Assembly: GCA_965153285.1 (NCBI GenBank)
Contig: OZ229110.1
Reading direction: 5' to 3' (one strand)
DNA length: 64,000 nucleotides
From: Podarcis tiliguerta
Taxonomy: Eukaryota
Shown here in pieces: positions 19,671-60,685 of the stretch. The position numbers and the translations under genes are program-made. The notes below the pieces were generated by a model. The model was not told where the DNA came from. It worked only from the letters and a program-made list of their open reading frames with translations, and made no database searches. How positions within the stretch are numbered: the first letter of the stretch is position 1; each line of letters starts with the position of its first letter.

Positions 19671-20724
19671 ACACTCCATAAACCCCAACCATTCCCTGCC
19701 AAAAGTGGGGGGGTTGCAATAATTCAATTGGAGACAACAGGTTTCCGATCAGGAGTCCCCGAATGCAGCCAATCCCTGCTAAAAGTAGGGATCCACTTGG
19801 GTGTCACTATATATTTTTAAAAATTAAAATAAAATTAAAACCTTGCTGTTCATTGGCAGTGGAAGAAGTTTTGTGTCTAAGTATTGTTGGCCTATAGTAG
19901 CATCGTATATTTGAAGTGATAATTTGTGGAATGTCTGTCTTAGGGCTGACAGTAGCAGATTCAGACCATTTTGTAGTTGCAGTTGTGATTAAATTTGCCA
20001 TTAACTACAAGCTATATAAATTCATTAGTATCCATTAATGATCAGAGCCTCTGGCAATATCTGTGTTATTCATTCTCCTGAGACTGAGCACTTTGCCTTC
20101 ATTACCGCTCTGTTGATATTTTGATACAATATGCTTTTGTCTTATTTATTTATTTATGCTATCTTCTTGATTAATCATGTGCCTTTTATTCTTCCAGAGG
20201 GGTAGCTGTGTTGGTCTGTTGCAAAAGAACAAGGAGTCTTAGAACTCTTTAAAGACTAACACAACATAAGCAATGCTAAATCCAGGCTTGTTAGACCTCA
20301 TACAGGAACATTAGAAAGAGTCAATTGCCGACATCATTTCTAACTCCTTGTGATAACAAAAGACTTCACAGTGTGACACTACAACCAGAGGTGGATTTTT
20401 GGTATGGTGGGTCCATGAGCTTTATTCAGGCCGCATCTGCACTATACGTTTAAAGCAGTATCATACCACTTTACACAGTTATGTCTTCCCCCAAGAAACT
20501 CTGTACACCCCAAAGAAGTGTACTTTGTTAAGGGTGCTGAGAGTTGTTAGGAGACTCACAGAGTGGTTTAATGATCAATGCTCCCTCCCAGGAAACTGAA
20601 CAGCATGATGCTGTTGAAACCAATTATGCTATAGTCACATTTATACTGCTTCCAAAGAGATTGGGCATATGTGTTTCATCCACTTTACTTCCACGACAAC
20701 CCTGTGTAACAGGTGCATAAATTA

Positions 20725-21511: not shown

Positions 21512-21614
21512 CAGGCATACAATTCCCATCATCCCTGACCACTGTTCCTGTCAGCTAGGGATGATGGGAGCTGTAGTCCCAAAACAGCTGGAGGGCCAAG
21601 TTTGGCCATACCTG
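21512..21614. mobile_element. hAT MITE (palindromic CTACAACTCCCATCATCCCT family), left arm deleted
   Basis: Perfect 8-bp TSD AATTAGAC (21504-21511 and 21615-21622); CAGG…CCTG ends. Confidence 0.88.
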
Positions 21615-21640
21615 AATTAGACACTGTAAACCAGCTAGAG

Positions 21641-21779
21641 CAGCTGTGGCATACCTGTGGACCTCCAAATGCTATTAGACTCCAACTCCCATCATTTCTA
21701 GCCAGCATGGCCAATGGCCAGAGATTATGGGAGCTGAAGTCTAACAACATCTGGAGGGGCACAGGTTCCCTATCCCTGA
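21641..21779. mobile_element. Older palindromic hAT-like MITE
   Basis: Arms CCTGTGGACCTCCAAATG…CATCTGGAGGGGCACAGG; a related copy lies at about 37500-37633. Confidence 0.65.
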
Positions 21780-31005: not shown

Positions 31006-31765
31006 ATACTTACAAAACTTCATGAATTCTTTAGAATTAAAAAAATGTATTAGAAGTGTCTGCTTGTGACGTAGTTTCCTTCACAGGCCCCTTGCATTGT
31101 GCAGTACTATTTCATAATAAACGAATGGAACAGTGCAGCTGTAGTAGCACACTCACTGCACCAGATCCATAGCATGTAAGCACTTCTGCTCTCGAGGAGT
31201 ACACTACAAGCTTCTTGGCCTCATTACTTATCTCAATGGATCAGCTCCATTCTGCTCCACCCAAGCTGGTTTTAGTTTGCTGGGCCTACAAACCATGGCA
31301 AATGAAGATATTCCCCATGGTCCTTCCATACCAAATGGTAACAAATCAAGCAGAGCCCTATGCCATCTAAGCTGCACCAGCCTTTTGGCAGAAAAGTATC
31401 ATTTTGTTCCGACAGCAGACTTGCTCAGACAGCTTGATAGAAGAGCTCATATTCAGAGGCAGCACTAACAGTCACTTCAGCTGAACCAGAGAATTGATGG
31501 GGAATGGAGTGGCATGCAGCAGAAACAAGGCTGCATACAAACCAGACACTTAAAGCCTGTTCAAAGCACTTGAGAGCTCCCAAACGATCCCGGGAACTAT
31601 AGTTTAAGGATGCTGTGAATTGGAGCTCTGAAAGGGTAAACTACAATTTCCAAGATTCATTGGTGAAAGCAATTTGCTTTAAGTGCATGATGTGTACAGA
31701 GCCCAGGACACAATACTGAAGCAAAAATACTGTAGCAAATATATTTGGACAGCAGCCCTACTATA

Positions 31766-31990
31766 CAGTGGTACCTCGGGTTAAGTACTTAATTCGTTCC
31801 GGAGTTCCGTGCTTAACCTGAAACTGTTCTTAACCTGAAGCACCACTTTAGCTAATGGGGCCTCCTCCTGCTGCCGCGCCGCCGGAGCACAATTTCTATT
31901 CTATCCTGAAGCAAAGTTCTTAACCCGAGGTACTATTTCTGGGTTAGCAGAGTCTGTAACCTGAAGCGTATGTAACCCGAGGTACCACTG
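31766..31990. mobile_element. Tigger/pogo-like MITE, family A copy 2 (inverted relative to copy 1)
   Basis: TA TSD; TIR CAGTGGTACCTCGGGTTA…TAACCCGAGGTACCACTG. Confidence 0.93.
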
Positions 31991-32766
31991 TACCAAATAA
32001 TATTTATGAATAGTTGCTTCAATTTCAAACAGCTGATTATCTGGACCATGTTCATTCCTTTTCATTTATTCACATGACTAGATCTTTTTGTGTTCAAAAT
32101 TGTTCTGGGAACAAAGTACAAATTCCACAATTGCACAGGAAATCATTCCCTTTAGCGACACATTTGCTTTGGTGCTCTTTATTTATTCATTGTCCCTTTA
32201 ATGAATAATCATTTATTCAGGTAGAAGAAACGGTATTAAAGGCTACTGATTGACTATCCACAACATCGAATTTGTGCTATATGATTAAGTTCTGAAAGTA
32301 AACACTGTAATGCATTCATGATTGCTGCATTTAATAGCTTCGATGAAATCTACATAATACAGAAGCTCAAACGTTGTCCTCAGTTCTTCTCTAAGCTGTA
32401 TGGGATAGGGCAGCTTGCTCAGTTTTCCCAAAATGTGACTTAACTATTATGGCTATGACAGCTAGTGGGCTGTTGTTGTTGTTAGAACCTCCAAAAAGAA
32501 AAAGAAAAGTTGCCTGACATTCCCAGGCTTAATGCATTTTTAAAATCCTTATAAGATAATTTTGTGCAGGAGTTCTGCTGGCCCCTTCACAACATGCCTC
32601 TTTTCTGCTGGCGGTTCTTCCTCTCCCTCCCCAATTGTTAACTTCTCTGCTTCCTCTCCCTCTTGAACTTTGCCTCTCACAATCTCATGGGCTCTTCATT
32701 TCTCTTCACTTGTTACATTCTTCCATGCATGAGGCCAGAATTCTGATGGTCAGGGGAGCTGAGCAG

Positions 32767-34940: not shown

Positions 34941-35903
34941 TAGAAGCTACAATTATGCTGCTATTAAATGTCCAGCCAGGTGGTTCTCAGAACTATTTCT
35001 TTCTAAATGATTATTCATTAAAGGTCTTCCCCCCCCCCCCAAACCCTCTCATCTGAGGATTGCAAATACAGTTGCAGGTTTCGCTGATCTTGTACCATGC
35101 ATTTTGCCACCCATTCATTGCTATTTTTCATCTAAAATGGGACAGGTTATGGATTGCATTTCTGGGTCATGGAAAGTTTTAATGGCTCACGATAAACAGG
35201 CATGAACAAGTTTGAATTTTAGGGAAATACTTCAGCTACACGCATTGAGGTGCATGTTAATTGGTTTCATTGCCATGAAAAATTGCACTGCCAATCATTA
35301 TTACTAACTAATGGAGGTTGGCATGACACTGTACTAAAATAAATGATTATTCTTGCTAACTACCAAATATTCTGTTTTGTGGTGCATTATGTAACAAGAG
35401 AGGCAAAGTGTAAAGGTACAGGGCGCAGAGTGACAGAGCAATTTAACAAACAGTCAAAAAAAGATAAAGATGACAAATAATTAAAAGTGAGTGGATAATT
35501 GGAAATCACGACTGCAGAGCATCAGGCTTTTGTCAGCTGCCCCTTTTTTTCTTTCATAACACTTAGCCCTCATAAATCTTTTCTCATTAATCATTACCAC
35601 TTCTTTTTAAGCAGTGGGCACAGAACTTGACTCTATTTTTTTGGGGGGGGGGGATCTTAAATGTCTTTCTTTTTTTTTTAACCCAACAACTCTCATTCCC
35701 CAGTATATTAAAGCCCATTTATTTCAACACAAATGCCTAGGAGTTCAATCCTTTTTCCCAAGGGGAAAACATGTCACTTCTGTTAATATGTAAAATAATA
35801 TGTTGCTTCATGTGAAACATCAAGCAGCATACCCTTTCCACCAGGGAAGCTCTGTCCAAAATATATTGCCATTTTCAAGTTGAACAGAGCCATTTAATAG
35901 TTT

Positions 35904-36254
35904 AAAGGTAAAGGGACCCCTGACCATTAGGTCCAGTCGTGACTGACTCTGGGGTTGCGGCACTCATCTCGCTTTATTGGCCGAGGGAGCCGGCGTACAG
36001 CTTCCGGGTCATGTGGCCAGCATGACTAAGTCGCTTCTGGTGAACCAGAGCAACGCATGAAAACACCGTTTACCTTCCCGCCGGAGAGGTACCTATTTAT
36101 CTACTTGCACTTTGACGTGCTTTTGAACTGCTAGGTTGGCAGGAGCAGAGACCCAGCAATGGGAGCTCACCCCATCGCGGGGATTCGAACCGCCGACCTT
36201 CTGATCAGCAAGTCCTAGGCTCTGTGGTTTAACCCACAGCACCACCCATGTCCC
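35904..36254 (-). mobile_element. Sauria SINE, full length
   Basis: TSD ATTTAATAGTTT (35892-35903 and 36255-36266); intact B box. Confidence 0.95.
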
Positions 36255-39136
36255 ATTTAATAGTTTGCAGTACTGATAAAATATGGGTCAGGTGTTACTC
36301 TCCATTCAAAAATACAATTCAATCTATAGAGCTACACCCAAGCAACTGAATTTATAGTAGAAATTTTGAATTACTAAATAAAATGTCAGGCTTGGTCTCT
36401 CTAATGTTCTATAAGTGATGGTTTTATCCAACATTGTCTATCAACAGTGTTTAGCCATCAGTTCCAAGTATAGCTGGTGTCTTTCCCCATCTGTTTATGG
36501 CAGCATGGTTGTTGGATACTACCCAGCTGTGATGTGCCTTGCAGTGCTGAACGAAGAAGTAGCATTGCCATGAGCAAAATAGCTGTTCCACTGGAGAAAT
36601 ATCACTTGGTTTAGTAAGCATATGTCACAGCTGTGAGCGGGTTTCTCAAAAAAGGAAAAGGAAAAAGAAGAAGGGGTGAATTTCCTCAGATGGCATCACT
36701 CCTTGTCAGTTAAAACAAGGCCTCCCTTGTCCACCAGAAGTACTCTGGCTCACTCTCACTTGGAATAAGAAATCTTCCTGCAGCGACATCCACCATGGAA
36801 ACAGCAAATGTATTCCAATTCATCCCTCCCATATGATACATGTCAAACATGAAGTGCTGAATTTCAAGTAAAAACAAAGCAAAATCTGTGTTTTGGATGG
36901 AGATGGTATATGAGATAAACACCCCAAAATAAGATAATTCCGGTCACAAAAATTAAGGACAGGTAAGCCTGAATCTTGTGACTTAAGACAATTTCAAGCA
37001 ATAGACTTCATTTCCAAACAAACAGGGAACAGAAACAGCAGGGAAGAGGTTGTCTTCCTTTAATGATTAAATTAAGAGGTGGGGTGGTTTGCAGATAAAA
37101 CAATGAAAAACCATTCCAAATATAAAAAGCAGTGCAAACATTTAAGTTAAAAATCAGTTCCAGTACAGATGCAGATAGGTATAAAGGTTTTTAGGCTGGT
37201 TAACACTAGGTGTTGACAACAACTCTGTTTATTGCTGCTCAGCAGGCACCCAAGAGAGCTGCACAGCAGTAGGGAGCCACCAACAAGGATGAGAGGCCTT
37301 ATTTGATGGAGAAAGCAATACAGAGTGGAATACAAACATGATTAGCATGCTCTCCTTGTGGTCTAGTCTTCTGATTTATGCCAGCCCTTCTAATGGAAAG
37401 AGCTACTGCTTGGGCTGGTTCATTAATGACAGCTGTAAGAATCATACTGCCTTATGCTGCAAAGCTAAGTAAACTGTTAGATGTATGTGAACTCTAAGTT
37501 AGGTGTGGGGAAACTGTGACCTTCTAGATGTTGCTAAACTACAACCCCATCTTTTCTGGTCACTGGCCATGCTTGCTAGGGATGAAAATATGCAGTTCAG
37601 CAACACCTGGTGGGCCAAATGGTCCCCATTCTTGCTCTAAGACAATAAACTCTTAAGAAGCAACTATGCAAAGCAGCCATATTTATATTCTTAATCACGA
37701 GACCAGTAAGCATGTTCAGAATAACTTCATATAGCAGGAGTGTGTAAGGGAACGTTTTTCTTTCTCATTTGATTTTGATCTTCCATTTCTTTCTAGAGTG
37801 ATTATTGATTTTAGGATGTGCACTTGGTCTTTTTCATTCTGTGCTGCAAAGAATACACAGTTTGGGTCCTAGCATTATCTGTTTCCTGAGACGGTTCACA
37901 TCAGGCCGCCATAGCTTAATGCTTGCAGTCTTAATAAGGTGGACTTTTAAATTAAGGGCATTAGGTTGAACATGAATCTCCCATGGGCAAGTTGTTATTA
38001 GAAGAAATGGGATAATATCAGATATCCTTTGTACCGCTCACTTCCTACGAACTAAGCAATTATGAAAATATTGAATCAATATTCTATTACTTAACAGTAT
38101 TATCATGAACTATATTTATATTCTTAATCATAGTTCCTTCAAAAGTGTGGTGATAAGCACTGCAAATGACTTCAGAACAACTTCATATATCTGAATGGCT
38201 TGGAAGGCTTCCAGAACACTGCAATCAGCCACGGCTGCTTGAAGAACTCCCAGTTTATCAGTCTTGCTTATCTGAAGCTCCCTAGGCCAGAATACTAAAT
38301 TTATTTTTATTTCCTTAGGAAGATTTATACAACACTTAGTTTAATAAAACCCTCTAAGCAGTTTGCACAAACTATTTGTTATTAGGGGCTGCCAACCCTG
38401 CTGGCTTCGCTCACCAACGCCCCCTAGCTATCAACCCCTTGGACAACCCCCTCCCCCGCACCAGTCCGACCCACATCCCTTTACACCTCACCCGTCCCAT
38501 TTCTGTTTGGGTAATTTTACGTGTAAGCACAACTATTTGGGAGTAAGTTTATTAAGACCAATGAGATTTGCTTTCTAATGAGGCTAGTAAGAAAAGGGGT
38601 GTAAGGACCTCTTCATATTGCATTTTAAGGTGTAGATTTTAAAAAAACAACTTAGGTGTGCCTCTAAAATGTAAAGAATAATTGTGGAAAAACAAGTGCA
38701 TATACCTGTATTATACTGGTACCAAGAGAAGCCAGGTTGGCTGCAACAACTGCCTCAAGCACACTACAAAGGCTACACTGTGGCAAACACTTGGGTAAGT
38801 TTTTCCAGGCAGTTGTAGTGCAATAATTTATTTGATATTTGCATTGTGTTTATGTTACTATTTATGTTGTTTCAGTAAGATGTATCATATCATACATTTT
38901 TCTGTTAAAGAGGCCTGCCAAGCAAAATGTAAGCCATGATGATATATAAAGTTTCTCATCTCCAGGGTTGGGTTTTCTCCAGGATAAATAAATACTAGAG
39001 GAAGTTCAATAAATACTCAGTAAGTGCAGCATGACATAAGGATAGGCTGACTTCCCTTGAGACTTGGTATCTGCTGATGTACTTTCCAAACAATCGTTTG
39101 AAATTGCTATCATGCAAGTGGCCACATTTTGCACTA

Positions 39137-39361
39137 CAGTGGTACCTTGGGTTAGATACGCTTCAGATTACATACGCTTCAGGTTACAGACTCCGCTAAC
39201 CCAGAAATAGTACCTCGGGTTAAGAACTTTGCTTCAGGATGAGAACAGAAATTGCGTGGTGGCAGCGCAGCAGCAGCAGGAGGCCCCATTAGGTAAAGTG
39301 GTGCTTCAGGTTAAGAACGGACCTCTGGAACGAATTAAGTACGTAACCAGAGGTACTACTG
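39137..39361. mobile_element. Tigger/pogo-like MITE, family A copy 3
   Basis: TA TSD; CAGTGGTACCT…AGGTACTACTG. Confidence 0.9.
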
Positions 39362-40287
39362 TACTTGTTTTCTGGACACTAGTGGCATTAAGCTGACACG
39401 GGTGCTTTTCAGATTTGATTGCATGTTCCAGTTAACCCTTCCCTCTCAGTTCTATTATTTCTCCATTATTTCTCTCACACACATGCAGGCTTTCTGTGAA
39501 TGGCTCCTGAAAAAAATATGAAAGGATTTCCTCCCACTGTGTGACTCCCATGCCTGCTCAGATTGACTCAGGAGGGTGTCAGGAGAACCTCCAGAACAGC
39601 ACATGGGGGTCAGAAAGGGGAGATAATTTCATCTGGCACAGGAATTATCGCTCCATTTGTGCACATGGAACATACATTTACGCCCCCTAAAATACACGTC
39701 TGTGTTTTATGCACATCTTTTCACCAGAAAATCCACCACAAAAATCATAGAAGTGTGTAATCAGGTTGATAGTTGTGTTCCAATCCACATACACTCTAGG
39801 ACTTGTGAATTATATTAGTTCACTTGAAAATATAAGCTGCATGAATTTCTCCTGCCTCCCTACCTCTGCCTCCAAACATATACCTATGAATGCTTTGATA
39901 AAGACCCTCTTTAATTACTTCAGTCAGCTGAGACAGCCAATATAAATACAGAGATTTGCGATAGTCAGACAAGGAAGATCTTTAAAGCATAAATAGTGCA
40001 TACAAAATGACTTATATCCACTCCTTCACCACCTGCATCCTCTGAGTGCACATTCATTTGTGTTGCATAAACTGTGACACAGAACATCTGCCTCTGGGGA
40101 AGAAAATCCCAACCGTGATATATGCCATTCTCTTTAACTATCTGCTCAGTAGGATGAAGTCTGATTATAAAGAGATTAACTAGGCTTAAGCAGACATACG
40201 AAAACAACCATGAGGGATCCAAAAACTTGTTCTCACTAGAGTGTGAAGTAGCCCTATCTGACTAAAGCTGTGTTCTTCTCTCCCCAG

Positions 40288-41320: not shown

Positions 41321-41438
41321 CAGGCAGAGGCAAACTCAGCCCTCCAGATGTTTGGGGACTACAACTCCCACCATCCCTGACAACTGGTCCTGTTAGCTAG
41401 GGATGATGGGAGTTGTAGTCCCTCTGGAGGGCAGAGTT
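41321..41438. mobile_element. Palindromic hAT MITE, right end lost
   Basis: AACTCAGCCCTCCAGA…GGGACTACAACTCCCA / TGGGAGTTGTAGTCCC…TCTGGAGGGCAGAGTT. Confidence 0.8.
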
Positions 41439-41677
41439 CCGGGTCATGTGGCCAGCATGACTAAGCCGCTTCTGGCAAACCAGAGCAGTGCACGGAAACG
41501 CCGTTTACCACTGGAGCGGTACCTATTTATCTACTTGCACGTTGACGTGCTTTCGAACTGCTAGATTGGCAGGAGCAGGGACCGAGGAACGGGAGCTTAC
41601 TCCGTCACAGGGATTCAAACCGCCGACCTTCTGATTGGCAAGTCCTAGGCTCTGTGGTTTAACCTACAGCGCCACCT
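41437..41677 (-). mobile_element. Sauria SINE lacking its 3' third, fused to a hAT MITE
   Basis: Colinear with other copies from TTCCGGGTCATGTGGCC to ACAGCGCCACC; no tail. Confidence 0.9.
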
Positions 41678-42618
41678 TTCCCCTTTACACGCCTGAGTTA
41701 TCCTTAGACTGAGAGAGAAGACATCTACAGCTGTAGATGCAATATACTTCGAACTAGTCACACATGAGACTGAGGGCTGCTCCGGATGAACTGCTTATTC
41801 AGCATTCATCCTGCTTTGCTTGCACAAAATTTACACAGTGATTAGATGATATCCATACACTCTGATTTGTTTACCGGGCAGTTATATGACAATGAGCATT
41901 CATCTCGCATTCGTCCCAATTTGCTTGAGGGGTATTTACTTGACTTCCTCTCAATCATTCCTGCATCTCATACTTTTCAACGCCTTTCCCCATCACTTTC
42001 CAAACCACAAAACATTTTATTTTATTTTTATTTTGCGTATTTTTAAATAGGCAAACCTAAAGTTCTGGAAGGCACCTGAATCCCATCTCCCAAAATACTG
42101 ACAGACTGGTGATCCCCTGAAAGAGAGGGCTCGCCTTTCACACACTTTAAGAACCTTTATATTAGAAGAGAGTATTTTTGCGATAGCTAGGAAAGCTATC
42201 AAAACTCTGCGAGCAGAAGTGAATCATTTACAAGTATCTTCAAAACCAGGAAGATTCTGAAATTGTAACACCTCAGGTTGTGATCTTAACAGAAACCACA
42301 CATTCTTTAGCTAGCTATAGTTTGAGTAGGAGGCCTCATAAGGTAACCTTGTGCACTGCAGGGAATAGTTGCTGCTGAAAGGCTCTGCCATCTGTGTCAG
42401 TTCTGTGGTAATTCCCTTGCACACCACTTTTAGCAGATGCTACCTTTTGAATAAGATATAAATTGAAGCCCTGACCAGGCGTAATCTCTAGAATCCCCTT
42501 TGGTGTTTGTTGCAGCAGGTATAAGATTATTCTTGCAGTCTGTGCCGTGATAAAAAGAAGTATAATTTGGGCCATCAATATTCACTTCAAACTGCCCCCA
42601 ATTTAAACCTTACATATA

Positions 42619-42844
42619 CAGTGGTACCTCAGGTTAAGAACTTAATTCATTCTAGAGGTCCGTTCTTAACGTGAAACTGTTCTTAACCTGAGGTACCACT
42701 TTAGCTAATGGGGCCTCTCACTGCTGCTGCACTACTGGCATGCGAATTCTGTTCTCATCCTGAGGTAAAGTTCTTAACCCAAGGTACTACTTCCGGGTTA
42801 GCAGAGTCTGCAACCTCTAGTGTCTGTAACCCGAGGTACCACTG
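42619..42844. mobile_element. Tigger/pogo-like MITE, family A copy 4 (inverted)
   Basis: TA TSD; CAGTGGTACCTCAGGTTA…TAACCCGAGGTACCACTG. Confidence 0.9.
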
Positions 42845-43273
42845 TATAGGGCTTCCTTTCATATTTCCCAGTGGACTGTAGTTGCATCACTGATTTTAGA
42901 AGGAAAATTCACCAATACAGTACAGGAGAATCGCCGCAGTAAACTTGCCTCTGCACTTAATCCATTAATAATGTAGTAAGAAGGAACAGTCATATTGTAG
43001 CATTATTAAGGGGAGTGCAACCACTCCCCCACCACTTATAAATTTGTCAGAAATTTCACACAGAGAGAACAGAAAAATGGTCATATTTTGTTGGTGTTAT
43101 ATGTGTGTATGTATAAAGGAGAATTCCTGGATGCCAAGAACAAAGTCTGGGGCAAGTACTATCTGGTAACAGAACCCCAGCATAGATTTAAAGTCACAAA
43201 ATATGCAGCAAAGTGTGGAATTATTGGCTGTTAGATCTTTAAAATATGTGCCCCTCCAAGTGAGTTGCAAAAA

Positions 43274-43594: not shown

Positions 43595-44929
43595 TAGCTA
43601 AGCCTAGCTGAACAGCTTGCTCTATGGTATTAACTCCTTCATGCATTAATTAGATTTAAGCATGTTTGTTATATGAGGCTGCTAATCCCACATTCCCCCC
43701 CCCCCAAATGTGTGTGTAGAGGTGGGTTCAACAGATTCAACAGACCATGCAAAAGGCAGGCTCCTCAACTTGCAGTCAAAGTAGGTCTTTTTCTACCTGG
43801 CCTGGAAGGGCAGGGCCCTGACTGACTCCAGCTGCAGCTGCTAAAGAGGCCAGAGGCCCTCTTAGTTGTGAATTCTGGAAGACCTGCTCCCTGCCTTGCA
43901 GGCCTTTTCCCACAATTTGTAGAAATTGTTCAGTTTTGTTGCGTACTTTTTATGATTTATTTATTGTTTATGACTACTTTTGTTTGTAATTATATAAGAT
44001 GCCTTGAGCATGGTTTTAACTATGCTAAGGTGAAATTCCTATAAAATTATGGATGTATGTATCTATGAGTTTGGGGACTGACACTGCATTCCTGCACGCC
44101 AACGCCATAGAATTAATCTGTGGTACAGAACAACAACAACAACAATTTATTATTTATACCTGACCCAAAAACATGTTGTTCTCTGAAAGGGACTAAGTTG
44201 TTGGTTACTGGGGAGAAATGACACGGTTCTCCTCAGGAGACTTACCGGTAATTCTGTAACAAAGACAGATGCATGGGACTGTATATTGGTCAGTCAAGAG
44301 AACAAGGGAACAGCCAGGGTTATTTAGAAAAGGCTTTGCTACTATAGCAGTGTGATTGCCACTAGCAGCACGCAACTTTGTGCATGTAGACACATACAAT
44401 CATTTTTTGTTTGTCAAGTGGCATCTTTGTGGTTCAACTGCTGATCGTTGAAAGAAATAATTTTGCTGGCGCAGTTAAAACTGAATCACAGTTTGGGGCA
44501 TTTTGCAACAGGCATCAGTGGACAGTGAATCAAATCCTAGGTCCCATAAGCAAACATTCCTGTCATATGGGTAAAATGCCAATAAGGAAGAAAACCCTTC
44601 ACCATACCATCTTACTGATCCCAGAAATATATATATGGATTTCATGTCACCTGCTTCATTGAGTCAGGCAGATTACAGAGCAGCCCAGGTTGAAAATCCT
44701 GTCCTCACCTTCCCCTGCCAATCTATTTGCTATAGCTACACTTCAAACAAAAACAACACAGGCTGCCTCAATTCTAGAATATCATTTCAGAGTAAAATAC
44801 AGGTGACAACCAATGCCACACAGCACACTGTTGGAAGTGTATCTTTGGTGTGAGTGTGTGTGCACCACCCTAGCATTTGGCTTAAAGGCTTGAAAAATAT
44901 CAGAAACATTCTACATTGCAAGGTTATTG

Positions 44930-45067
44930 CAGTGGTGGCCAAACTTGGTCCCCCAGCTGTTTTGGGACTACAACTCCCATCATCCCTAGCTAACAGGACC
45001 ACTGGTCAGGGATGATGGGAATTGTAGTCCCAAAACAGCTGGAGGGCCAAGTTTGGTCACGTATCTG
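44930..45067. mobile_element. Palindromic hAT MITE
   Basis: Near-perfect hairpin of about 60-bp arms: CCAAACTTGG…TTTTGGGACTACAACTCCCATCATCCCT / AGGGATGATGGGAATTGTAGTCCCAAAA…CCAAGTTTGG. Confidence 0.85.
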
Positions 45068-47000: not shown

Positions 47001-47715
47001 TGTTATAAATTGTGGGTGCTAGATTTCCCTAAATTCCTGGAGAGTTAAACTGGAAATCAGACTCTTAATAGTTGGTCTCAGCTTCCTGTGTTCAGGTGAT
47101 CGCTTGAGCCATTAAAAGAGAACAAAGACAGGGGGATGGGACATAAGCAAAGACAGTGTGCCAGCTGGCAAATGGTGGGAGCTGTACCCTGAGATCTAAA
47201 TCAGCACGGAGTGGAATTTAGGATTGCTGTTGGGGATGATATAGGATGGACAAAAAGTGGCATTCAGTTAAATGCCGCAAGCTACACAGAGTCGGAGCCA
47301 TGGCTGGGGTCTATTTAGATCCAAGGCTACAGCTATGGAAGAAGCAAGATTCTTTTGAAGTGTAATGATGGGAGGCCCTCCATCACTGGCTCAGGTTGTA
47401 TATATGTGTAAATAAACCATGTTTCATAAAGACTCCACAGTCTCCGCTGTGCCTTATTTTCCAAAAGGAAACATAGACCTTGGGTAAAGGTAAAGTACCC
47501 CTGGACCGTTATGTCCAGTCAAACTGGACTATGGCGCTCATCTAGCTTCAGGCCAAGGGAGCTGCCGTTTGTCCACAAACAACTTTCTTGGTCATGTGGG
47601 CAGCATGACTACACCACTTCTGGCGCAATGGGACACCGTGGCGAGTGCCAGAGCACAAGGGTGCTTGGAACCCCTGGAATCTTGCACCGCTCAGAGACTG
47701 GGGTGGCATGCAACA
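47001..47715 (+). mobile_element. Solo LTR (Gypsy/ERV-type)
   Basis: TGTT…AACA termini; 4-bp TSD ATAC (46997-47000 and 47716-47719); AATAAA at 47411-47416. Confidence 0.75.
47483..47656 (-). mobile_element. 5'-truncated older Sauria SINE nested in a solo LTR
   Basis: GGTAAAGGTAAAG tail; GGCGCTCATCT and GGTCATGTGGGCAGCATGACT core motifs. Confidence 0.8.
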
Positions 47716-50562: not shown

Positions 50563-51049
50563 NNNNNNNNNNNNNNNNNNNNNNNNNNNNNNNNNNNNNN
50601 NNNNNNNNNNNNNNNNNNNNNNNNNNNNNNNNNNNNNNNNNNNNNNNNNNNNNNNNNNNNNNNNNNNNNNNNNNNNNNNNNNNNNNNNNNNNNNNNNNNN
50701 NNNNNNNNNNNNNNNNNNNNNNNNNNNNNNNNNNNNNNNNNNNNNNNNNNNNNNNNNNNNNNNNNNNNNNNNNNNNNNNNNNNNNNNNNNNNNNNNNNNN
50801 NNNNNNNNNNNNNNNNNNNNNNNNNNNNNNNNNNNNNNNNNNNNNNNNNNNNNNNNNNNNNNNNNNNNNNNNNNNNNNNNNNNNNNNNNNNNNNNNNNNN
50901 NNNNNNNNNNNNNNNNNNNNNNNNNNNNNNNNNNNNNNNNNNNNNNNNNNNNNNNNNNNNNNNNNNNNNNNNNNNNNNNNNNNNNNNNNNNNNNNNNNNN
51001 NNNNNNNNNNNNNNNNNNNNNNNNNNNNNNNNNNNNNNNNNNNNNNNNN
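50563..51049. other. Assembly gap (487 N)
   Basis: Run of N. Confidence 1.
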
Positions 51050-52172: not shown

Positions 52173-52218
52173 AGTAAGTTCATACTAGTTCACAGGCTAA
52201 GGCTGAAGCATCTCAGTA

Positions 52219-52444
52219 CAGTAGTACCTTGGGTGACAGAAGCTTCCGGTTACAGACTCCGCTAACCCAGAAATAGTACCTCAGGTTAAGAACTTTGCTT
52301 CAGGATGAGAACAGAAATTGTGCTCCGGCGTCGCGGCAGCAGCAGGAGGCCCCATTAGCTAAAGTGGTGCTTCAGGTTAAGAACAGTTTCAGGTTAAGAA
52401 CGGACCTCCGGAATGAATTAAGTTCTTAACCCGAGGTACCACTG
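52219..52444. mobile_element. Tigger/pogo-like MITE, family A copy 5
   Basis: TA TSD; CAGTAGTACCT…AGGTACCACTG. Confidence 0.9.
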
Positions 52445-55400
52445 TACTGTTGGAAAATGTAGCTGTTTTCCTCATGCCTCTACCAGAACTGTATCAAAGC
52501 ATCAGTAGCCATTGCAATGCCAAAATTTGCTTATACCATAGTGTACAGATACTCTGTAGTGAGAGTCCTGTATTAACCATGGACAATGAGTACATTATGC
52601 ATAGAGATGTAAGAAGGCAGTGACTTCTATTCCAACTTGTTTTCATCATAATCAGTGATGTTCCCGTTCTTCTGCATTTCAGTTTTTGCCGTAATTTCCA
52701 TTTCCATTTCAGTTTTCAACAGAATTCTTCAACCTATTATTATAAATTGATTTTACAAATATATTCCAAAAACTTAATTGCTCATAATTTTCCTTTTGGG
52801 CAAATTTTTTGTTCTTTGATGTACACAATCTCTTCTGAAAAGCTTTTAAAAATGCTGATCATTAGGTAATCAATGCAGCCACCTGAGCATTATGATTTAC
52901 ATACACAATTTGATACCTTTCTACAAATAATAAAATGCTGCACATGAAAATGAGCAATAATAAACTATTTAACTGATAGTTAAATCATTACTCATACCTA
53001 GCAGCATATTTAAAAGGCTATTGCAAAATTTTAATTACTGTACAGTAGATCTACCTATCTACTGATGGACTAATATAGAAGCAGACAGAAACCAAATCAT
53101 TCATAGCTTTGGGTGGATGGCGGAATGACAGAATCCTTCATTTATAGTGGTGGTAGCTCTAACAAGATGTAAGATTGATTGATTCAGTTGTGAGGTTCAT
53201 ATAGTCATTTTTCTCTCTAAGCCAAGGCTAGGGATATTTGAGAACATCTTCAGTAAGCAGCAGATGGGACAGCTTAATAAGGATTTTCAGCTATTTAGAA
53301 ATGAGAGGATATAATGTAAATATTTATTTTTAGTTTTTCTGTTCTAATGGAATGAGTTCCACAGTGAATAGGCAAGGCAGCTAATGTCTTTGGTCACCTA
53401 GGTTTCATTTTCTGCTGCACATTCAATCCATATAGTCTAAGCTCCTAGAGTTCTTTCAGACTGACAAGAGACACTTTGGTTGAGGGGATCCCTCCCCTTC
53501 TTCTACATTGCTGTGCACTGAATTTCTGTACCACTGTTTTGCTATCCTGATGTTGGTGGTGTGCTTTTTTGTGGGGATTTTATTTGGTGAATCTATTGTA
53601 AATTGTATTCATTTTAATTGCTATATTTTTTTGTCTATATGCACTGCACAAATTCTGCCCGTGAAGTTCCCTAAGGAATATGCATTCCCCAGTTTTGGAC
53701 TGTTAGAATTTGTGTCCTATTTAAATATCTACTGGGTGTGTTTAAATTGCATAGAAAGAAGATGTATCACAAAAGAAGATGCAATTTTCTTCTGCAACCG
53801 TTTAAAAGAGAGAGGCATAAATACCTTCCATTTAACTAATAGAACATGAAGTTTCTCAAATGGTTTTCTTATTTTTTAAATGGCTTGTTTTCTATAGATA
53901 GCTGGTTGAGGATACCTGTCAAAAATGAGATGCTTCAATGCTGCCAAATATTATAAATATTCATATTTATGAATGAAAAATGTCTGTCAGTTACTATAAG
54001 TTTATGTAATGATTGGCTGAGATCCAGCAGTTGATATGCACACATTGAGACTTCCTCTTCCCTGAGCACAGTAACTCTGTGTATGCAGAGCAGGATATTC
54101 CTAAAGGCACATGAAACATTCCCTTATTAAACAGAAACAAAAGAAAGGCCCCTGTACATGCAAAGCTTTGAATTACCCCCATCGTTCAACACCATCTTCA
54201 GTAAGTGAAGGAATTTTCTTCTAAGCAATTTTCTTCTACCATGGAAAATGAACAGTACTGCACAGCTAGTTTCGATGGTGGCCTTTGGTGGGTTCTCCCT
54301 TGGGTGAAATGAAAGGCTAGTCACAGCATGAAATAGGATTTTCACTCACGAGCAGTTCAGAGCTTTCCCCCCAGTCTTTTCATGGTACTTTCCTCAGAAC
54401 TGGTGTCAAATAATTGACCTTTCCCACAACATATGCCAGGTAATATTTTCATCTATGTGAGCACTTATTGAATTCCAAACAACTTCCCAGTCTCCTCTGC
54501 TTACACAGTCTACTCCAGATGCCTCCTTATTTTACTAGTTGACTATTCTATGCATGGATTCTATTTCTTCATTATATAGCTTATCCTTGTGCTCATCGGA
54601 GACTCATTAGGCAGTAACAGAGAAACCGAATCCCCACATCCAACCTACATCCGGAGCCAGTGTCAAGATACTCAAAGACTAGGTGTTTGCAAAAGATGGA
54701 CTTCCATTTTCAGTTGCATTAACAGGCACAAACAATGGATTCCACCTATCTGAGACTGAGCCAGTTCTGTCTACACTCCATTTCCTTCATTACTGTTAAT
54801 GGCTCACTTTGTTTAAAAGATGTAACCATAAGATAATATCTTATTGCTTTTATGAGCACATTTTGGTCAGCCACAGCTCAATGTCTTGTTTTTACTTTCA
54901 AAGCTACATACTCATTCTCCAAGGATGCAGCATTTTCCATACATCATTGGGAATGGGGGGTTGACAGTTCAACAAAAAGAAGTCCACCACAGATGCTGTA
55001 ATCCCTTATTACATCACAGATGGTGGCATATGAATGCAACATTGATGTAGATGTATAATGCAAGGGAAAAAAATAAGACACATGATTCCTGATCCAGAGC
55101 CCTGCATACACTCCTCCACACATACACACAGAAGCCCTAGTACACCACACCTCTCCTCTCATCGTGTTCTAATATTGGAGAAGAAATCCAGGTTTGTTTT
55201 GTACTAGACTCATTGTGTCTGCATGCCAGAGCCAGGAGGTGACAAGGAGGAAAAGGAGAGAGAAGCTTTTCGAGCCCATGATCATCCCAAAGGTCATAAA
55301 CCACAGTTTGTGAAGCTGCGAATGAACATCTAAACCAGACCAGAGTTTACCCAGCCATGAGGACATTTTCTTTCCTCCTAACTACTCAACTGAGCTGAAT

Positions 55401-56562
55401 TACTGCAGGCAGGTAAGCTCTGGGAAAGCAAGCAGATGTCATAACATTGCAGTGGATCATGTTCCCCCTTCCAGGAAGACTGAGAAAATAAATCTGTTTG
55501 GTGGCTGTTGAAAGTTCAGCTATCTTCTACTCAAAACACAAATACGCATAACACCAGAGAAGAGGCAAGGACATTTCAAGATAAACAGAGTTAAGAGCTC
55601 AGCAGTGTTTCATATTCAAGGCTACAAGAGCAAAGCAGATGAGTGCGAGGCCTCCATTCAAAATGAATGGATAAATATATGCGAGTAGGTCTCTCAGCGT
55701 GGGGTTTTTTTAAAAAAAAGCCTAACACAGAATTTTCTGTATGATTCAAGGGCAGCAAATATAAACTAAAGCAACAAATGAAGGGCTAAAATAAATTAGA
55801 ATATTAATTCTATGGAAAAAGGTATCATTCTCCTTAGAGTTGAGGATATATTATTTGTCTGTGGTTACTCAGTCCCATATGCTTGCATGGGAGAGAGTTT
55901 CCCCAAGCTAATTTTTATTTCACTTCTCTCCCCTCCCCCCTCCAGTGGTGCTGGCAACAATCACTGAATATGGTTTGGTGTGTATTTTTATATCTAGCTC
56001 GTCAGCAAATATAACCCAGTAACCACTTCTGAAATTGATGGAGTTCTGCTTATATACATCCCAACAGCAGAATAATTGGCCTATAGTTCCTTCTCTCTTC
56101 AGCTTTATGTTTGACAATATATAACACTTCCATGACAGCAAACTTTTTTAAGCAGAGTAATCCACATATCTGAAACATAGTAAAAGTTTACATCCTACAC
56201 TCAAGGGAAATGTAGGACAACCAAAAAAGGACATGTATTTATAAGGGGAAAGCTGAAAAAGAGAATATCACATACAATATGAAAAGGATAAAGTGTTCAC
56301 AAGCATTTCAGAGAAATCACATCCATTAGAAAAAAATAAATACAAATGCTTTCAGGGCAAGAAAGAAGAAACAATGGGACAAAAAGGGACATGTATCCCA
56401 CTCCCTTTTCTGGGTCTCTAAGCTTTTAAGTCCCTCCCTCCTGGAGTATCTGTTTTGACCATCTTCAGATGCAAATACTGTCTTGGCCTGACCATTGTTG
56501 CAAGCTATTATGCTAATAATCTGCTATCCAGATCTTATTTGAAGGCATATAGCTTAAGACGA

Positions 56563-59500
56563 CCCCTTCATGGATCACTGCCTTGCCGTGGCGAAGGGGC
56601 TTGAAGAACTCAGAGAAGCTATGAACTAAGCCGAGCAGGGCACCCAAGATGAACAGGTCATAGTGGAGAGTTTTGACCAAACGTGATCCACCTGGAGTAG
56701 GAATCGGCAAGCCACTCCAGTATCCCTGCCAAGAAAACTCCATGGACAAAGACAACAGGTATATAAAAGTTATGACGCTGGAAGATGAGCCCCTCAGGTC
56801 GGAAGGCGTCCAACATGCTACTGGGGAAGAGCGGAGGACAAGTACAAGTAGATCCAGAGCTGATGAAGCGGCTGGGCCAAAGCCGAAAGGACGCTCAGTT
56901 GCGGATATGCATGGAAGCGAAAGGAAAGTCCAATGCTGTAAAGAAAAATATTGCATAGGAACCTGGAATGTAAGAACCATGAACCTGGGTAAGTTGGATG
57001 TGGTCAAAAATGAGATGGCAAGAATAAACATTGACATCTTGGGCATCAGTGAACTAAAATGGACGGGAATGGGCGAATTCAGTTCGGATGACTATCATAT
57101 CTACTACTGTGGGCAAGAAACCCATAAAAGAAATGGAGTGGCCCTCATAGTCAACAAAAGAGTGGCGAAAGCTGTACTGGGATGCAATCTCAAAAATGAT
57201 AGAATGATCTCGATACGAATCCAAGGCAGACCTTTTAACATCACAGTAATCCAAGTTTATGCACCAACTACTGGTGCTGAAGAAACTGAAATTGACCAAT
57301 TCTATGAAGACTTACAACAGCTTATAGAAGTGACACCAAAGAAAGATGTTCTTCTCATTATAGGGGATTGGAATGCTAAAGTAGGGAATCAAGAGATAAA
57401 AGGAACAACTGGCAAATTTGGTCTTGGAATTCAAAACGAAGCAGGGCAAAGGCTAATAGAGTTCTGTCAAGAGAACAAGCTGGTCATCACAAACACTCTT
57501 TTCCAACAACACAAGAGACGACTCTACACATGGACATCACCAGATGGGCAGCATCGAAATCAGATTGATTATATTCTCTGCAGCCAAAGATGGAGAAGCT
57601 CTATACAGTCAGCAAAAACAAGACCTGGAGCTGACTGTGGCTCAGATCATCAGCTTCTTATAGCAAAATTCAAGCTTAAACTGAAGAAAGTAGGAAAAAC
57701 CACTGGGCCGGTAAGATACAATCTAAACCAAATCCCTTATGAATACACAGTGGAAGTGAGGAACAGGTTTAAGGATTTAGATTTGCTGGACAGAGTGCCT
57801 GAAGAACTATGGATGGAGGCTCGAAACATTATACAGGAGGCAGCAACGAAAACCATCCCAATGAAAAGGAAATGCAAGAAAGCAAAGTGGCTGTCCAATG
57901 AGGCCTTACAAATAGCGGAGGAGAGAAGGCAAGCAAAATGCGAGGGAGATAGAGAAAGATACAGGAAATTGAATGCAGAATTCCAAAAAATAGCAAGGAG
58001 AGACAAGAAGGCCTTCTTAAATGAGCAATGCAAAGAAATAGAGGAAAACAACAGAATGGGAAGAACAAGAGATCTGTTCAAGAAAATTGGAGATATGAAA
58101 GGAACATTTCGTTCAAAGATTACCATAATAAAGGACAAAAGTGGTAAGGACCTAACAGAAGCAGAAGACATCAAGAAGAGGTGGCAAGAATACACAGAGG
58201 AATTATACCAGAAAGATATGGATGTCTCGTACACCCCAGGTAGTGTGGTTGCTGACCTTGAGCCAGACATCCTGGAGAGTGAAGTCAAATGGGCCTTAGA
58301 AAGCATTGCAAATAACAAGGCCAGTGGAAGTGATGGTATTCCAGCTGAACTATTTAAATTTTTAAAAGATGACGCTGTTAAGGTGCTACGCTCAATATGC
58401 CAGCAAGTTTGGAAAACTCAGCAGTGGCCAGAAGATTGGAGAAGGTCAGTCTACATCCCAATCCCAAAGAAGGGCAGTGCTAAAGAATGCTCCAACTACC
58501 GCACAATTGCACTCATTTCACACGCTAGCAAGGTTATGCTTAAAATTCTTCAAGGAAGGCTCAAGCAGTATGTGGACCGAGAACTCCCAGAAGTGCAAGC
58601 TGGATTTAGAAGAGGCAGGGGAACCAGAGACCAAATTGCAAACATGCGCTGGATTATGGAGAAAGCTAGAGAGTTCCAGAAAGACATCTACTTCTGCTTC
58701 ATTGACTATGCAAAAGCCTTTGACTGTGTCGATCACAGCAAACTATGGCAAGTTCTTAAAGAAATGGGAGTGCCTGATCACCTCATCTGTCTCCTGAGAA
58801 ATCTCTATGTGGGACAAGAAGCTACAGTTAGAACTGGATATGGAACAACTGATTGGTTCAAAATTGGGAAAGGAGTACGACAAGGCTGTATTTTGTCTCC
58901 CTGCTTATTTAACTTATATGCAGAATTCATCATGCGAAAGGCTGGGCTGGATGAATCCCTAGCCGGAATTAAGATTGCTGGAAGAAATATCAACAACCTC
59001 AGATATGCAGATGACACAACCTTGATGGCAGAAAGTGAGGAGGAATTAAAAAACCTTTTATTGAGGGTGAAAGAGGAGAGCACAAAATATGGTCTGAAGC
59101 TCAACATCAAAAAAACGAAGATCATGGCCACTGGTCCCATCACCTCCTGGCAAATAGAAGGGGAGGAAATGGAAGCAGTGAGAGATTTTACTTTCTTGGG
59201 TTCCATGATCACTGCAGATGGTGACAGCAGCCACGAAATTAAGAGACGCCTGCTTCTAGGGAGGAAAGCAATGGCAAACCTAGATAGCATTCTAAAAAGT
59301 AGAGACATCACCTTGCCAACAAAGGTCCGTATGGTAAAAGCTATGGTTTTCCCAGTAGTGATGTATGGAAGTGAGAGCTGGACCATAAAGAAGGCTGATC
59401 GCCGAAGAATTGACGCTTTTGAATTATGGTGCTGGAGGAGACTCTTGAGAGTCCCATGGACTGCAAGAAGATCAAACGCATCCATTCTTAAGGAAATCAG

Positions 59501-59790
59501 CCCTGAGTGCTCACTGGAAGGACAGATTGTGAAGCTGAGGCTCCAATACTTTGGCCACCTCATGAGAAGAGAAGACTCCCTGGAAAAGACCCTGATGTTG
59601 GGAAAGATGGAGGGCACAAGGAGAAGGGGACGACAGAGGACGAGATGGTTAGACAGTGTTCTCGAAGCTACAAACATGAATCTGACCAAACTGCGGGTGG
59701 CAGTGGAAGACAGAAGTGCCTGGCGTGCTCTGGTCCATGGGGTCACGAAGAGTCGGACACGACTGAACGACTAAACAACAACAACAACAC
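56563..59790 (+). mobile_element. Full-length BovB (RTE-clade) LINE retrotransposon
   Basis: 12-bp TSD AGCTTAAGACGA at 56551-56562 and 59791-59802. Length is 3228 bp with a (CAA)n tail. A Bov-A-like 5' segment GGAGTAGGAATCGGCAAGCCACTCCAGTAT...CCATGGAC lies at 56694-56747, and the 3' end GTCCATGGGGTCACGAAGAGTCGGACACGACTGAACGACTAAAC is typical of BovB. Confidence 0.97.
56673..59774 (+). CDS. BovB ORF: APE endonuclease + reverse transcriptase, uninterrupted (first in-frame ATG at 56742, about 1010 aa)
   Basis: APE motifs IGTWNVRT, ILGISE, IQVYAPT, IIGDWNAKVG, IDYIL and GSDHQLL. RT motifs YRTIALISHASKV, QAGFRRGR, FIDYAKAFDCVDH, GVRQGCILSPCLFN and LRYADD. No stops or frameshifts. The track's start at 56673 is a TTG. 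Confidence 0.97.
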   Translation: MTKRDPPGVGIGKPLQYPCQENSMDKDNRYIKVMTLEDEPLRSEGVQHATGEERRTSTSRSRADEAAGPKPKGRSVADMHGSERKVQCCKEKYCIGTWNVRTMNLGKLDVVKNEMARINIDILGISELKWTGMGEFSSDDYHIYYCGQETHKRNGVALIVNKRVAKAVLGCNLKNDRMISIRIQGRPFNITVIQVYAPTTGAEETEIDQFYEDLQQLIEVTPKKDVLLIIGDWNAKVGNQEIKGTTGKFGLGIQNEAGQRLIEFCQENKLVITNTLFQQHKRRLYTWTSPDGQHRNQIDYILCSQRWRSSIQSAKTRPGADCGSDHQLLIAKFKLKLKKVGKTTGPVRYNLNQIPYEYTVEVRNRFKDLDLLDRVPEELWMEARNIIQEAATKTIPMKRKCKKAKWLSNEALQIAEERRQAKCEGDRERYRKLNAEFQKIARRDKKAFLNEQCKEIEENNRMGRTRDLFKKIGDMKGTFRSKITIIKDKSGKDLTEAEDIKKRWQEYTEELYQKDMDVSYTPGSVVADLEPDILESEVKWALESIANNKASGSDGIPAELFKFLKDDAVKVLRSICQQVWKTQQWPEDWRRSVYIPIPKKGSAKECSNYRTIALISHASKVMLKILQGRLKQYVDRELPEVQAGFRRGRGTRDQIANMRWIMEKAREFQKDIYFCFIDYAKAFDCVDHSKLWQVLKEMGVPDHLICLLRNLYVGQEATVRTGYGTTDWFKIGKGVRQGCILSPCLFNLYAEFIMRKAGLDESLAGIKIAGRNINNLRYADDTTLMAESEEELKNLLLRVKEESTKYGLKLNIKKTKIMATGPITSWQIEGEEMEAVRDFTFLGSMITADGDSSHEIKRRLLLGRKAMANLDSILKSRDITLPTKVRMVKAMVFPVVMYGSESWTIKKADRRRIDAFELWCWRRLLRVPWTARRSNASILKEISPECSLEGQIVKLRLQYFGHLMRREDSLEKTLMLGKMEGTRRRGRQRTRWLDSVLEATNMNLTKLRVAVEDRSAWRALVHGVTKSRTRLND

Positions 59791-60685
59791 AGCTTAAGAC
59801 GAAGCATGGTGGCATCTTGAAAAGGGATGGGAAGTGGAGAGAGAACAGAAGAACGTTTCCTAGATAAAGGTAGGAGGAGAAAGTCATCAAGAGCTCATGC
59901 TGGTAAAATTGCAGGTTCAGAGTGGTGGAGAAAGGCAAAAGACAGACTTATCAGAATTTGTCATCACGGCGTTTTACTGAAATTAAGAGAACTTGAAAAT
60001 CAAAGGAGCCAATTTTAGAGAGGCCATGAAAAGAGAATCATTTCAGAGGGTAACTTCCTTGTTTTGCAGTGCAAGAGCAGATGCTATAGTGTCAGAGGGT
60101 GAAAGAGGGCAAGGCAAGGAAGGGGGCAAAGAACACTTTTCAGCCACTACAAAGGGGCTTCTGTGCATATTGTATCTCATTCGGAAACTAGCCTATGAAT
60201 CAAACCAATGGGCTTTTGGTATGTTAACTGTTGTTCTTTAAGAAAGCTTAGAAATATGTTTTTAAAAACTGTCAAATAATTGCCTGCGCATGATTGATGC
60301 ATTTTATTTCAAGAAAATGCAAAAAATAATATGAAAGCCTCAGGGGACAGTGTCTTTTGGCATATGCTCTTCTTGCACATTTCTAAAAAATGTGGTGGTA
60401 CACACCATCTCGAGGAGTAAGAAAACCGCTAAGACTAATCGAAACTGTCAGAAATGTGGCACTTCCATTTAAATCATGGAATTTACATTTTGCTGCTTTA
60501 TTACTGCATGATCCTAAGGACATCCCACTGAGTTCAATAGGGTTTACTATTCAGTATGCGTGCTTAGGATTGTGGCTCTTGAACAGATTGACTTGCAAAA
60601 CAACTAATATGCCACCACATTTCCACAAAACTCAAACGTTTCCATTGGGATTTTTAAATTTTTAATCAGATGTCAGTTTTCTTAC

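What the first reader, a model, noticed from the sequence alone, without database searches (positions are those of the whole stretch)
56563..59790. Intact, full-length, probably retrotransposition-competent BovB LINE
Seen: 3228 bp between 12-bp TSDs, a single ORF of at least 1010 aa with all recognisable APE and RT catalytic motifs, and a clean (CAA)n tail. Known: BovB is a classic horizontally transferred LINE shared by squamates, ruminants, marsupials and ticks, and most genomic copies are truncated. Inference: this is a very recent insertion, possibly polymorphic and a source element, and is useful for horizontal-transfer phylogenies.
Basis: partly seen in the sequence, partly recalled or inferred. 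Interest (0 to 1): 0.7.

Follow-up and report, generated by a model that had tools for sequence, protein, structure and literature searches.

The report
Ribozyme-headed young BovB jumping gene
This is an intact, recently inserted copy of the lizard BovB jumping gene, one of likely more than a hundred such copies and with no sign of being a parent copy; its first 128 letters are predicted to fold into a self-cutting RNA, and broken sister copies keep restarting at one spot just behind that head, which would explain how this family spawns short two-part elements.

Summary
Observation confirmed: 3228 bp, 12-bp TSD, one 1010-aa APE-RT frame, (CAA)n tail; BovB clade, 96% to Podarcis BovB protein. 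Recent: the site is empty in a related species and probably in some conspecifics. Not special: of the first 100 listed of 674 copies with an exact 5' end, 45 are full length and 21 have an open frame; its private variants occur nowhere else in the assembly, so 'source element' has no support. (2) In 35 of 69 rearranged copies (inverted or internally deleted) the 5' piece ends at nt 184-211, behind a conserved hairpin, where ruminant Bov-A-type SINEs also join. Ribozyme-headed RTEs are known; I found no report for BovB or of the hotspot, but could not read the key 2011 paper.

The parts
56551..56562 (+). Left target-site duplication (12 bp), starting T|A with TTT about 11-13 nt upstream (Tn-TA signature)
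   Evidence: signature as described in PMC13295347
56563..59790 (+). Full-length BovB (RTE-clade) LINE, 3228 bp
56563..56690 (+). Predicted HDV-like ribozyme: P1 56563-69/56593-99; P2 56571-78/56683-90; P3 56580-82/56590-92; L3 56583-89; P1.1 56585/56600; extended P4 region 56602-56676
   Evidence: descriptor with controls; covariation with L142, L151; RNA 5' ends; cleavage not tested
56677..56681 (+). J4/2; likely catalytic C at 56677 in a C-N-A-A register
   Evidence: C kept in 142 of 143 copies, next base C/T variable (22 T), next A 143 of 143
56628..56663 (+). Short upstream frame inside P4; the family has an ATG here, this copy has lost it through its private change at 56629
56692..56720 (+). 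Conserved 5'-UTR hairpin shared with a rotifer-type RTE and ruminant bipartite SINEs
56746..56773 (+). Breakpoint hotspot (element nt 184-211) in rearranged sister copies; intact in this copy
   Evidence: same joints in other species
56742..59774 (+). Single ORF, 1010 aa from the first ATG (frame open from 56664)
56958..57650 (+). APE endonuclease domain
   Evidence: (PF03372)
58461..59204 (+). Reverse transcriptase domain, YADD at 59004-59015
59776..59790 (+). (CAA)4CA tail plus one C, directly behind the stop codon
59791..59802 (+). Right target-site duplication

Best explanation
This is an intact, recently inserted BovB LINE whose RNA is likely released from longer transcripts by a predicted HDV-like ribozyme in its first 128 nt and would then be copied back into DNA by its own endonuclease and reverse transcriptase. 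Shown: structure, TSD, open frame, empty site in a relative, family-wide 5' end at P1 nt 1, RNA 5' ends at nt 1 in a relative, breakpoint cluster at nt 184-211. Inferred steps: (1) transcription from upstream reads into the element; (2) the ribozyme cuts before nt 1, leaving an uncapped end; (3) the 1010-aa protein is made from the ATG at nt 180; (4) APE nicks at T|A behind a T run and RT primes on the CAA tail (established for APE-type LINEs; signature met here); (5) the protein likely also holds the 5' module (ribozyme plus the conserved hairpin), so that when RT drops off early the cDNA end (giving internal deletions) or the second target strand (giving inversions) restarts just behind the hairpin. 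This copy is a member of an active young lineage and has left no detectable daughters.
For: Intact protein; AF2 model pLDDT 80.7 whose best matches are L1 ORF2p and R2. Young: terminal branch 0.0016, 4 private substitutions among 68 full-length copies; shared variants pN/pS 0.18-0.21, so the sources were under selection. Empty site: one 3232-nt contig of organism B runs 55800-56560 straight into 59802-60400. Ribozyme: strict descriptor hits once in the window on both strands, exactly at nt 1, against 4 hits in 150 x 63.5 kb of control sequence; the same fold with paired changes in P1, P2, P3 and P1.1 lies in the 5' UTR of L142 (91% to a Rotaria RTE protein) and L151; TSD ends within 1 nt of P1 nt 1 in 47 of 48 copies with a TSD; C1-G37 and a one-pair P1.1 match the active L1Tc ribozyme (PMC3185411, passages). 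RNA: 59 and 76 reads in two single-cell runs carry 24 loose letters = Smart-seq3 tag + 8 variable + GGG + 2 element letters (TSO design PMC9546772), and a cap would mostly add one more G (PMC6885630). Hotspot: 35 of 69 independent events, 19 of 25 inverted and 11 of 26 deleted, with 31 different 3' partners from nt 2008 to 3168; 16 of 22 inverted copies have a TSD, 13 of those 1-7 nt microhomology; five ruminant-type bipartite SINE copies join at about nt 186.
Against: No cleavage or retrotransposition assay. Rfam gave no match at E<=10; the MFE of nt 1-118 is no better than shuffles (z 0.13), and with 40 nt of flank the MFE does not form P1. The strict descriptor was tuned after seeing the element; the loose one gives 17 chance hits in 12 x 63.5 kb and 6 other hits in the window. 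Only 2 of 27 outside loci scanned showed the fold (many lack the 5' UTR or are distant), and 4 of the 29 closest copies fail the strict one. U17 and C120 leave an irregular P2/P3 junction. In bulk run X24, 71 reads run on upstream of nt 1, no start pile-up was listed there in any run, and the RNA comes from another species, not this copy; I saw only a consensus and a median length, and TSO strand invasion was not excluded. Protein binding to the 5' module is pure inference. No host gene or promoter was identified around this copy, so it may be silent.
Confidence: 0.68

Rival explanations
1. The element has an internal Pol II promoter that starts at nt 1, as L1 does; the HDV-like fold is a slow or dead relic.
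For: Exact 5' ends in DNA and RNA fit a start site too; read-through reads uncut at nt 1 exist; ruminant BovB lost P3'/P1' yet amplified hugely; no Rfam hit.
Against: Most tagged reads lack the cap-derived extra G (with PMC6885630); all core elements including the candidate catalytic C are kept across subfamilies and covary with RTEs at 51-60% protein identity.
Confidence: 0.2
2. The hotspot reflects a stable free 5' RNA fragment of about 190-205 nt, or the tail-like ACAACA at nt 190-195 acting as a second priming site, with no protein tether.
For: ACAACA lies at nt 190; L060 is a 5' piece of 193 nt inserted alone with a TSD; breakpoints sit 5-30 nt behind the start codon, where a bound ribosome or protein would protect RNA.
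Against: ACAACA also lies at nt 752, 944 and 1486, and none of the 69 events ends there; no RNA ends piled up near nt 195 (contigs and short reads are weak for this). Splicing is unlikely: 2 of 11 deletion junctions look splice-like and it cannot make inversions.
Confidence: 0.3
3. This copy is a source (master) element that is producing new insertions.
For: Open frame and all motifs intact; short daughters under about 1.4 kb would not carry its private markers; only one assembly was searched.
Against: Private alleles are found once in the genome, in this copy; nearest copy L002 differs at 13 sites; other copies have closer partners, e.g. L017/L026 differ at 1 site.
Confidence: 0.07
4. The copy looks intact but is inactive through one of its amino-acid changes or through silencing.
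For: Five residue differences from the family majority, one private; loss of the upstream ATG and of one P4 pair at 56629; no daughters; no host gene found nearby.
Against: All five changes fall in columns that vary among 33 homologues; three are shared with sister copies, so they passed through a transposing source.
Confidence: 0.3

Closest known systems
Squamate Bov-B / BovB LINE (RTE clade), e.g. Podarcis muralis Bov-B (PMC13295347: abstract, Results, Discussion, first part of figures and tables read; supplements not read)
   Same: Single APE-RT ORF, (CAA)n tail, C-run at the 5' end, Tn-TA target signature, 96% protein identity to a Podarcis entry.
   Different: Nothing at family level. This lineage is younger (99%+ between copies against 3% mean pairwise reported for P. 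muralis). The sections I read mention neither a ribozyme nor a breakpoint hotspot.
HDV-like ribozymes of non-LTR elements: L1Tc (PMC3185411, passages), R2 (PMC3774820, passages), RTE and Baggins (Ruminski et al. 2011, not held; known only through PMC5786205 and PMC6765202 passages)
   Same: Nested double pseudoknot at the exact 5' end; 7-bp P1, 3-bp P3, one-pair P1.1, C1-G37 as in L1Tc.
   Different: P4 region of about 75 nt with side hairpins; G-C rather than C-G or U-A at P1.1 compared with L151 and L142; irregular P2/P3 junction; vertebrate BovB host; activity not shown.
Bipartite non-autonomous RTE elements and SINEs: Bov-A, Bov-tA, AfroSINE, WALLSI (PMC5786205, passages and one section)
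   Same: 5'-UTR piece joined to the 3' end; conserved mid-UTR domain kept. An amplified 290-bp family of this kind exists in this genome.
   Different: Here dozens of single, unamplified insertions show the same 5' boundary with different 3' partners, and inversions share it; that paper leaves the cause of the bias open and proposes transcriptional reasons.
L1 twin priming (recalled; PMC2912911 seen in a search listing only)
   Same: Inverted 5' segment, TSD, short microhomology at the second priming site; L128 is a classical case with adjoining breakpoints.
   Different: In most copies the second priming site is fixed near nt 195 and about 2.5-2.9 kb of the element are skipped, while the complete 5' end is recovered.
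Ruminant BovB (loci L138, L139, L145; 92-95% to Bos and Moschus proteins)
   Same: P2 strands kept with a paired change, conserved hairpin kept, about 80% protein identity.
   Different: P3' and P1' strands deleted and a long new 5' extension gained, so the ribozyme is predicted dead there.

Membership tests
RTE-clade LINE | Single ORF with N-terminal APE and RT, no ORF1 | tested here: met
RTE-clade LINE | Short microsatellite 3' tail instead of poly(A), TSDs, Tn-TA target signature | tested here: met
   TSD in 48 of 52 full-length copies, 11-13 bp in 42, T|A start in 40, TTT upstream in 23
BovB | RT groups with squamate and ruminant BovB | tested here: met
   with Podarcis 100/99; in a 15-row group with Varanus, Anolis and ruminants (93/95, not starred); labels are database names; two rows were dropped for short overlap
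BovB | Match to the Repbase/Dfam BovB consensus | not testable with these tools
   no repeat library held
Active (source) LINE copy | Daughter copies share its private variants | tested here: not met
   daughters under about 1.4 kb not testable
Active (source) LINE copy | Retrotransposes in an assay | not testable with these tools
   bench test needed
HDV-like ribozyme | P1, P1.1, P2, P3, P4 in nested double-pseudoknot order | tested here: met
   P2/P3 junction has one unpaired base on each side
HDV-like ribozyme | 7-nt L3 with U first and G sixth; catalytic C and A in J4/2 | tested here: met
   the consensus pattern itself is recalled, with the L3 G, catalytic C and constrained A also named in PMC3774820 passages
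HDV-like ribozyme | Covariation of helices in homologues | tested here: met
   window, L142 and L151 keep all helices with different letters; only three independent lineages
HDV-like ribozyme | Match to an Rfam HDV/CPEB3-type model | tested here: not met
   no match at E<=10; Rfam models are family-specific, so this bars filing it under an Rfam family, not under the fold
HDV-like ribozyme | RNA 5' end at P1 nt 1, uncapped | tested here: inconclusive
   tagged reads start at nt 1 without extra G in two runs of one study of a relative; read-through reads also exist
HDV-like ribozyme | Self-cleavage in vitro, lost on changing the catalytic C | not testable with these tools
   bench test needed

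The most novel reading that the evidence does not exclude
BovB carries a portable 5' module: an active HDV-like ribozyme that frees it from any host transcript, so it needs no host-matched promoter after horizontal transfer, followed by a hairpin that the element's protein holds at the insertion site and uses as a fixed restart point near nt 195. That one module would explain exact 5' ends, the many 5'-intact copies, a new kind of long-skip inversion, and why RTE LINEs repeatedly give birth to bipartite SINEs such as Bov-A with the same junction.
Probability: 0.35. Interest if true: 0.75.

Novelty: new member of a known kind. Interest (0 to 1): 0.5.

Why it matters
As a single intact BovB copy it is ordinary. 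The family-level anatomy matters more. Two questions are stated as open in papers I read: why RTE LINEs establish so easily after horizontal transfer (PMC13295347) and why almost only RTE, Ingi, Vingi and R2 make bipartite non-autonomous elements (PMC5786205). A 128-nt ribozyme candidate with a named catalytic base and a 28-nt restart hotspot make both testable with simple assays. RTE-1 and Vingi proteins with their own 5' and 3' UTRs are being used as RNA-only gene-insertion tools (PMC13708176, passages); a fixed restart site predicts a class of internally deleted or inverted products that keep both ends and would pass end-only PCR checks.

Tried and rejected
Rfam search of 56450-56900: nothing. 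Plain MFE folding: not above shuffles. Viral contigs: no relative confirmed among 104 stretches. The 42 genome-contig hits are mostly short contigs in bacterial assemblies; two bacterium- or parasite-labelled proteins nest inside ruminant BovB at 100/100, which I read as contamination, not transfer. A 64-mer thought to mark this copy's sublineage matched 434 places, but the 12 fetched were older 91-97% copies, so it is no daughter marker. Searching the own genome with the L142 5' region returned only the same family. A pattern for older 5' variants gave no new P1/P3 covariation inside the genome; positions 4-41 or 14-40 were fixed by my search patterns, so their conservation is not evidence. 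First guess of 56678 as catalytic C was dropped because older subfamilies carry T there. Splicing as cause of the deletions rejected. Host-gene search: 150 of 242 frames of 62 aa or more scanned against Pfam, only an old RT fragment hit; short exons would be missed, so intronic or intergenic position stays open. Bulk RNA gave no start pile-up at nt 1. Ruminski et al. 2011 not held; its text and supplement may already list BovB. Searches behind 'not found in print': ribozyme; hotspot; lacertid activity; subscription journals, Repbase and patents are not covered. Earlier scan findings by sequence, place and first word search: none.
Full report
Observation. The element runs 56563-59790 between identical 12-bp repeats. 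One frame is open from 56664 to 59774; the first ATG at 56742 gives 1010 aa, and a fluke RTE protein starts at the homologous Met. APE and RT domains score in Pfam, all 15 motifs checked are present, and no highly conserved column is altered. The AlphaFold model (pLDDT 80.7, first 65 residues disordered) matches L1 ORF2p and R2 best. The stop codon abuts a (CAA)4CA tail.

Identity. The best protein hit is a Podarcis muralis entry at 96%, with Zootoca 93%, Varanus about 78% and cattle 76-79%. In an RT-region tree of 23 rows the window groups with Podarcis at 100/99, inside a wider squamate and ruminant group. It is lacertid-type BovB; nothing points to a recent transfer. TSDs of 11-13 bp starting T|A match the published Tn-TA signature (PMC13295347).

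How special is this copy? The assembly holds 674 exact matches of the 5' 38-mer, 893 of a mid-element 32-mer and 3012 of the 3' 37-mer. Of the first 100 listed 5' matches, 7 were already held and 93 were fetched in 92 loci: 45 are full length and 21 have an open frame of 1000 aa or more, one of them with a 1-bp gap. Scaled to 674 this suggests about 140 open copies (inference; two contigs sampled). Among 68 full-length copies this one has 4 private substitutions and a terminal branch of 0.0016, at most about 1.2 My with the rate used in PMC13295347. Shared variants show pN/pS of about 0.2, so the lineage has been transposing under selection. The private alleles occur only here, so no daughter longer than about 1.4 kb exists in the assembly.

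Polymorphism. One contig of organism B crosses the site without the element. In runs X1 and X2 of organism A the left contig stops exactly at the end of the TSD and the right contig begins with 18 letters that do not align to the tail; 18 + 12 = 30 is the overlap expected of 31-letter words if those letters are left flank. X4 gives 19 + 11. I read this as an empty allele in all three, with a branch into the element in X1 and X2; I did not see the letters, so this is inference.

The 5' ribozyme. Nt 1-128 fit an HDV-like fold: P1 of 7 Watson-Crick pairs, P2 of 8, P3 of 3, a 7-nt L3, one-pair P1.1 and a C-N-A-A linker. A strict descriptor, tuned after seeing the element, hits once in the window, at nt 1, and 4 times in 9.5 Mb of control sequence. 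Two distant RTEs (L142, 60% and L151, 51% to the Podarcis protein) carry the same fold upstream of their ORF with different letters in every helix; 25 other outside loci scanned did not, many lacking the region. C 56677 is kept in 142 of 143 copies while its neighbour varies. The TSD ends within one base of P1 nt 1 in 47 of 48 copies. The active L1Tc ribozyme also starts with C1 paired to G37 (PMC3185411). In two single-cell runs of a related lizard, 59 and 76 reads carry 24 loose letters that read as Smart-seq3 tag, UMI, GGG and the element's first two bases (PMC9546772); capped RNA would mostly show one more G, uncapped about 90% none (PMC6885630; PMC9245221 uses the same mark). Against: no Rfam hit, unremarkable MFE, read-through reads in bulk RNA, and no assay. 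Ruminant-type loci keep P2 with a paired change but have lost P3' and P1' and gained a new 5' extension.

The restart hotspot. Among 122 5'-intact loci from three samples, 69 independent events were neither full length nor cut by the locus end, after collapsing an amplified 290-bp bipartite family and one duplicate pair. In 35 the 5' piece ends at nt 184-211: 19 of 25 inverted, 11 of 26 deleted, 4 of 17 other, plus the family (L259 is probably a family member counted apart, and L282 was scored at 42 although one search shows 196). Among the 52 breakpoints between nt 42 and 500 this is P about 4e-29 after correcting for the choice of window. The 3' partners are all different (nt 2008-3168), so these are separate events. 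Of 22 inverted copies checked, 16 have a TSD and 13 of those a 1-7 nt microhomology, so they formed during insertion. The same joints appear in other species' contigs and RNA (nt 186, 191, 197). The hotspot lies behind a hairpin (nt 130-158) conserved in a rotifer-type RTE and in five ruminant bipartite SINE copies that join to the 3' end at about nt 186 (the name Bov-A is recalled, its origin by internal deletion is stated in PMC5786205). Splicing and the ACAACA motif alone do not explain it. My preferred reading is that the protein holds the 5' module so that priming restarts there; a protected free 5' RNA fragment is the main rival.

Comparison and novelty. Intact BovB in lacertids is known. 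HDV-like ribozymes in RTE elements are known in general (PMC5786205, PMC6765202), so a BovB example is a new member at most; my searches found none named, but the primary paper was not available. I found no description of the hotspot. PMC6036668 (passages) served as background only.

Verdict. Real, intact, recent, probably polymorphic, not a demonstrated source. The copy alone would score about 0.2; the ribozyme with RNA-end support and the restart hotspot raise it to 0.5.

Noticed in passing
window 5208-6127 (+): Old, broken fragment of a different RTE-like LINE: RVT_1 hit E 5e-7, 30% to the BovB protein, ending in a His-rich knuckle-like motif.
   Followed up: partly
window 11134-11481, 19330-19672, 35903-36259, 41437-41687, 16919-17290, 47483-47653: Six copies of a 340-bp repeat with a 20-nt antisense match to the BovB 3' end; likely Sauria SINE (label recalled).
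   Followed up: partly
window 8207-8424, 31762-31993, 39168-39365, 42615-42846, 52205-52448: Five copies of a 200-230 bp repeat whose ends look like inverted repeats; likely a MITE.
   Followed up: no
window 21518-21778, 41321-41422, 44929-45059: Short palindromic repeat family, present in both orientations.
   Followed up: no
L037, L261, L265, L267, L269-L273, L275, L281, L284, L285: Amplified non-autonomous bipartite family of about 290 bp (nt 1-186 plus 3' end, 83-88% to the window copy) that keeps the ribozyme head; L270-L273 share a flank and look like segmental duplicates.
   Followed up: partly
element nt 66-89, 126-128 and 409-431 in sister copies: Smaller breakpoint clusters; 126-128 coincides with the predicted ribozyme's 3' end.
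   Followed up: no
L138, L139, L145 upstream of the ORF: Ruminant BovB has lost half of the ribozyme core and gained a GC-rich repeated 5' extension, suggesting a switch to a promoter after transfer.
   Followed up: partly
L207-L221, L227; P0018, P0041, P0050, P0081: BovB-like sequences at about 80% identity sit in bacterial and parasite assemblies on short contigs; the two tested nest in ruminant BovB, so likely contamination.
   Followed up: partly
window 50563-51049: 487-base N stretch; the three 'ORFs' listed across it are artefacts of the N.
   Followed up: no
window 56549-56550 and 59789-59790: The duplication extends two more bases with one T/C mismatch, which would put the nick about 10 nt from the upstream T run.
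   Followed up: no
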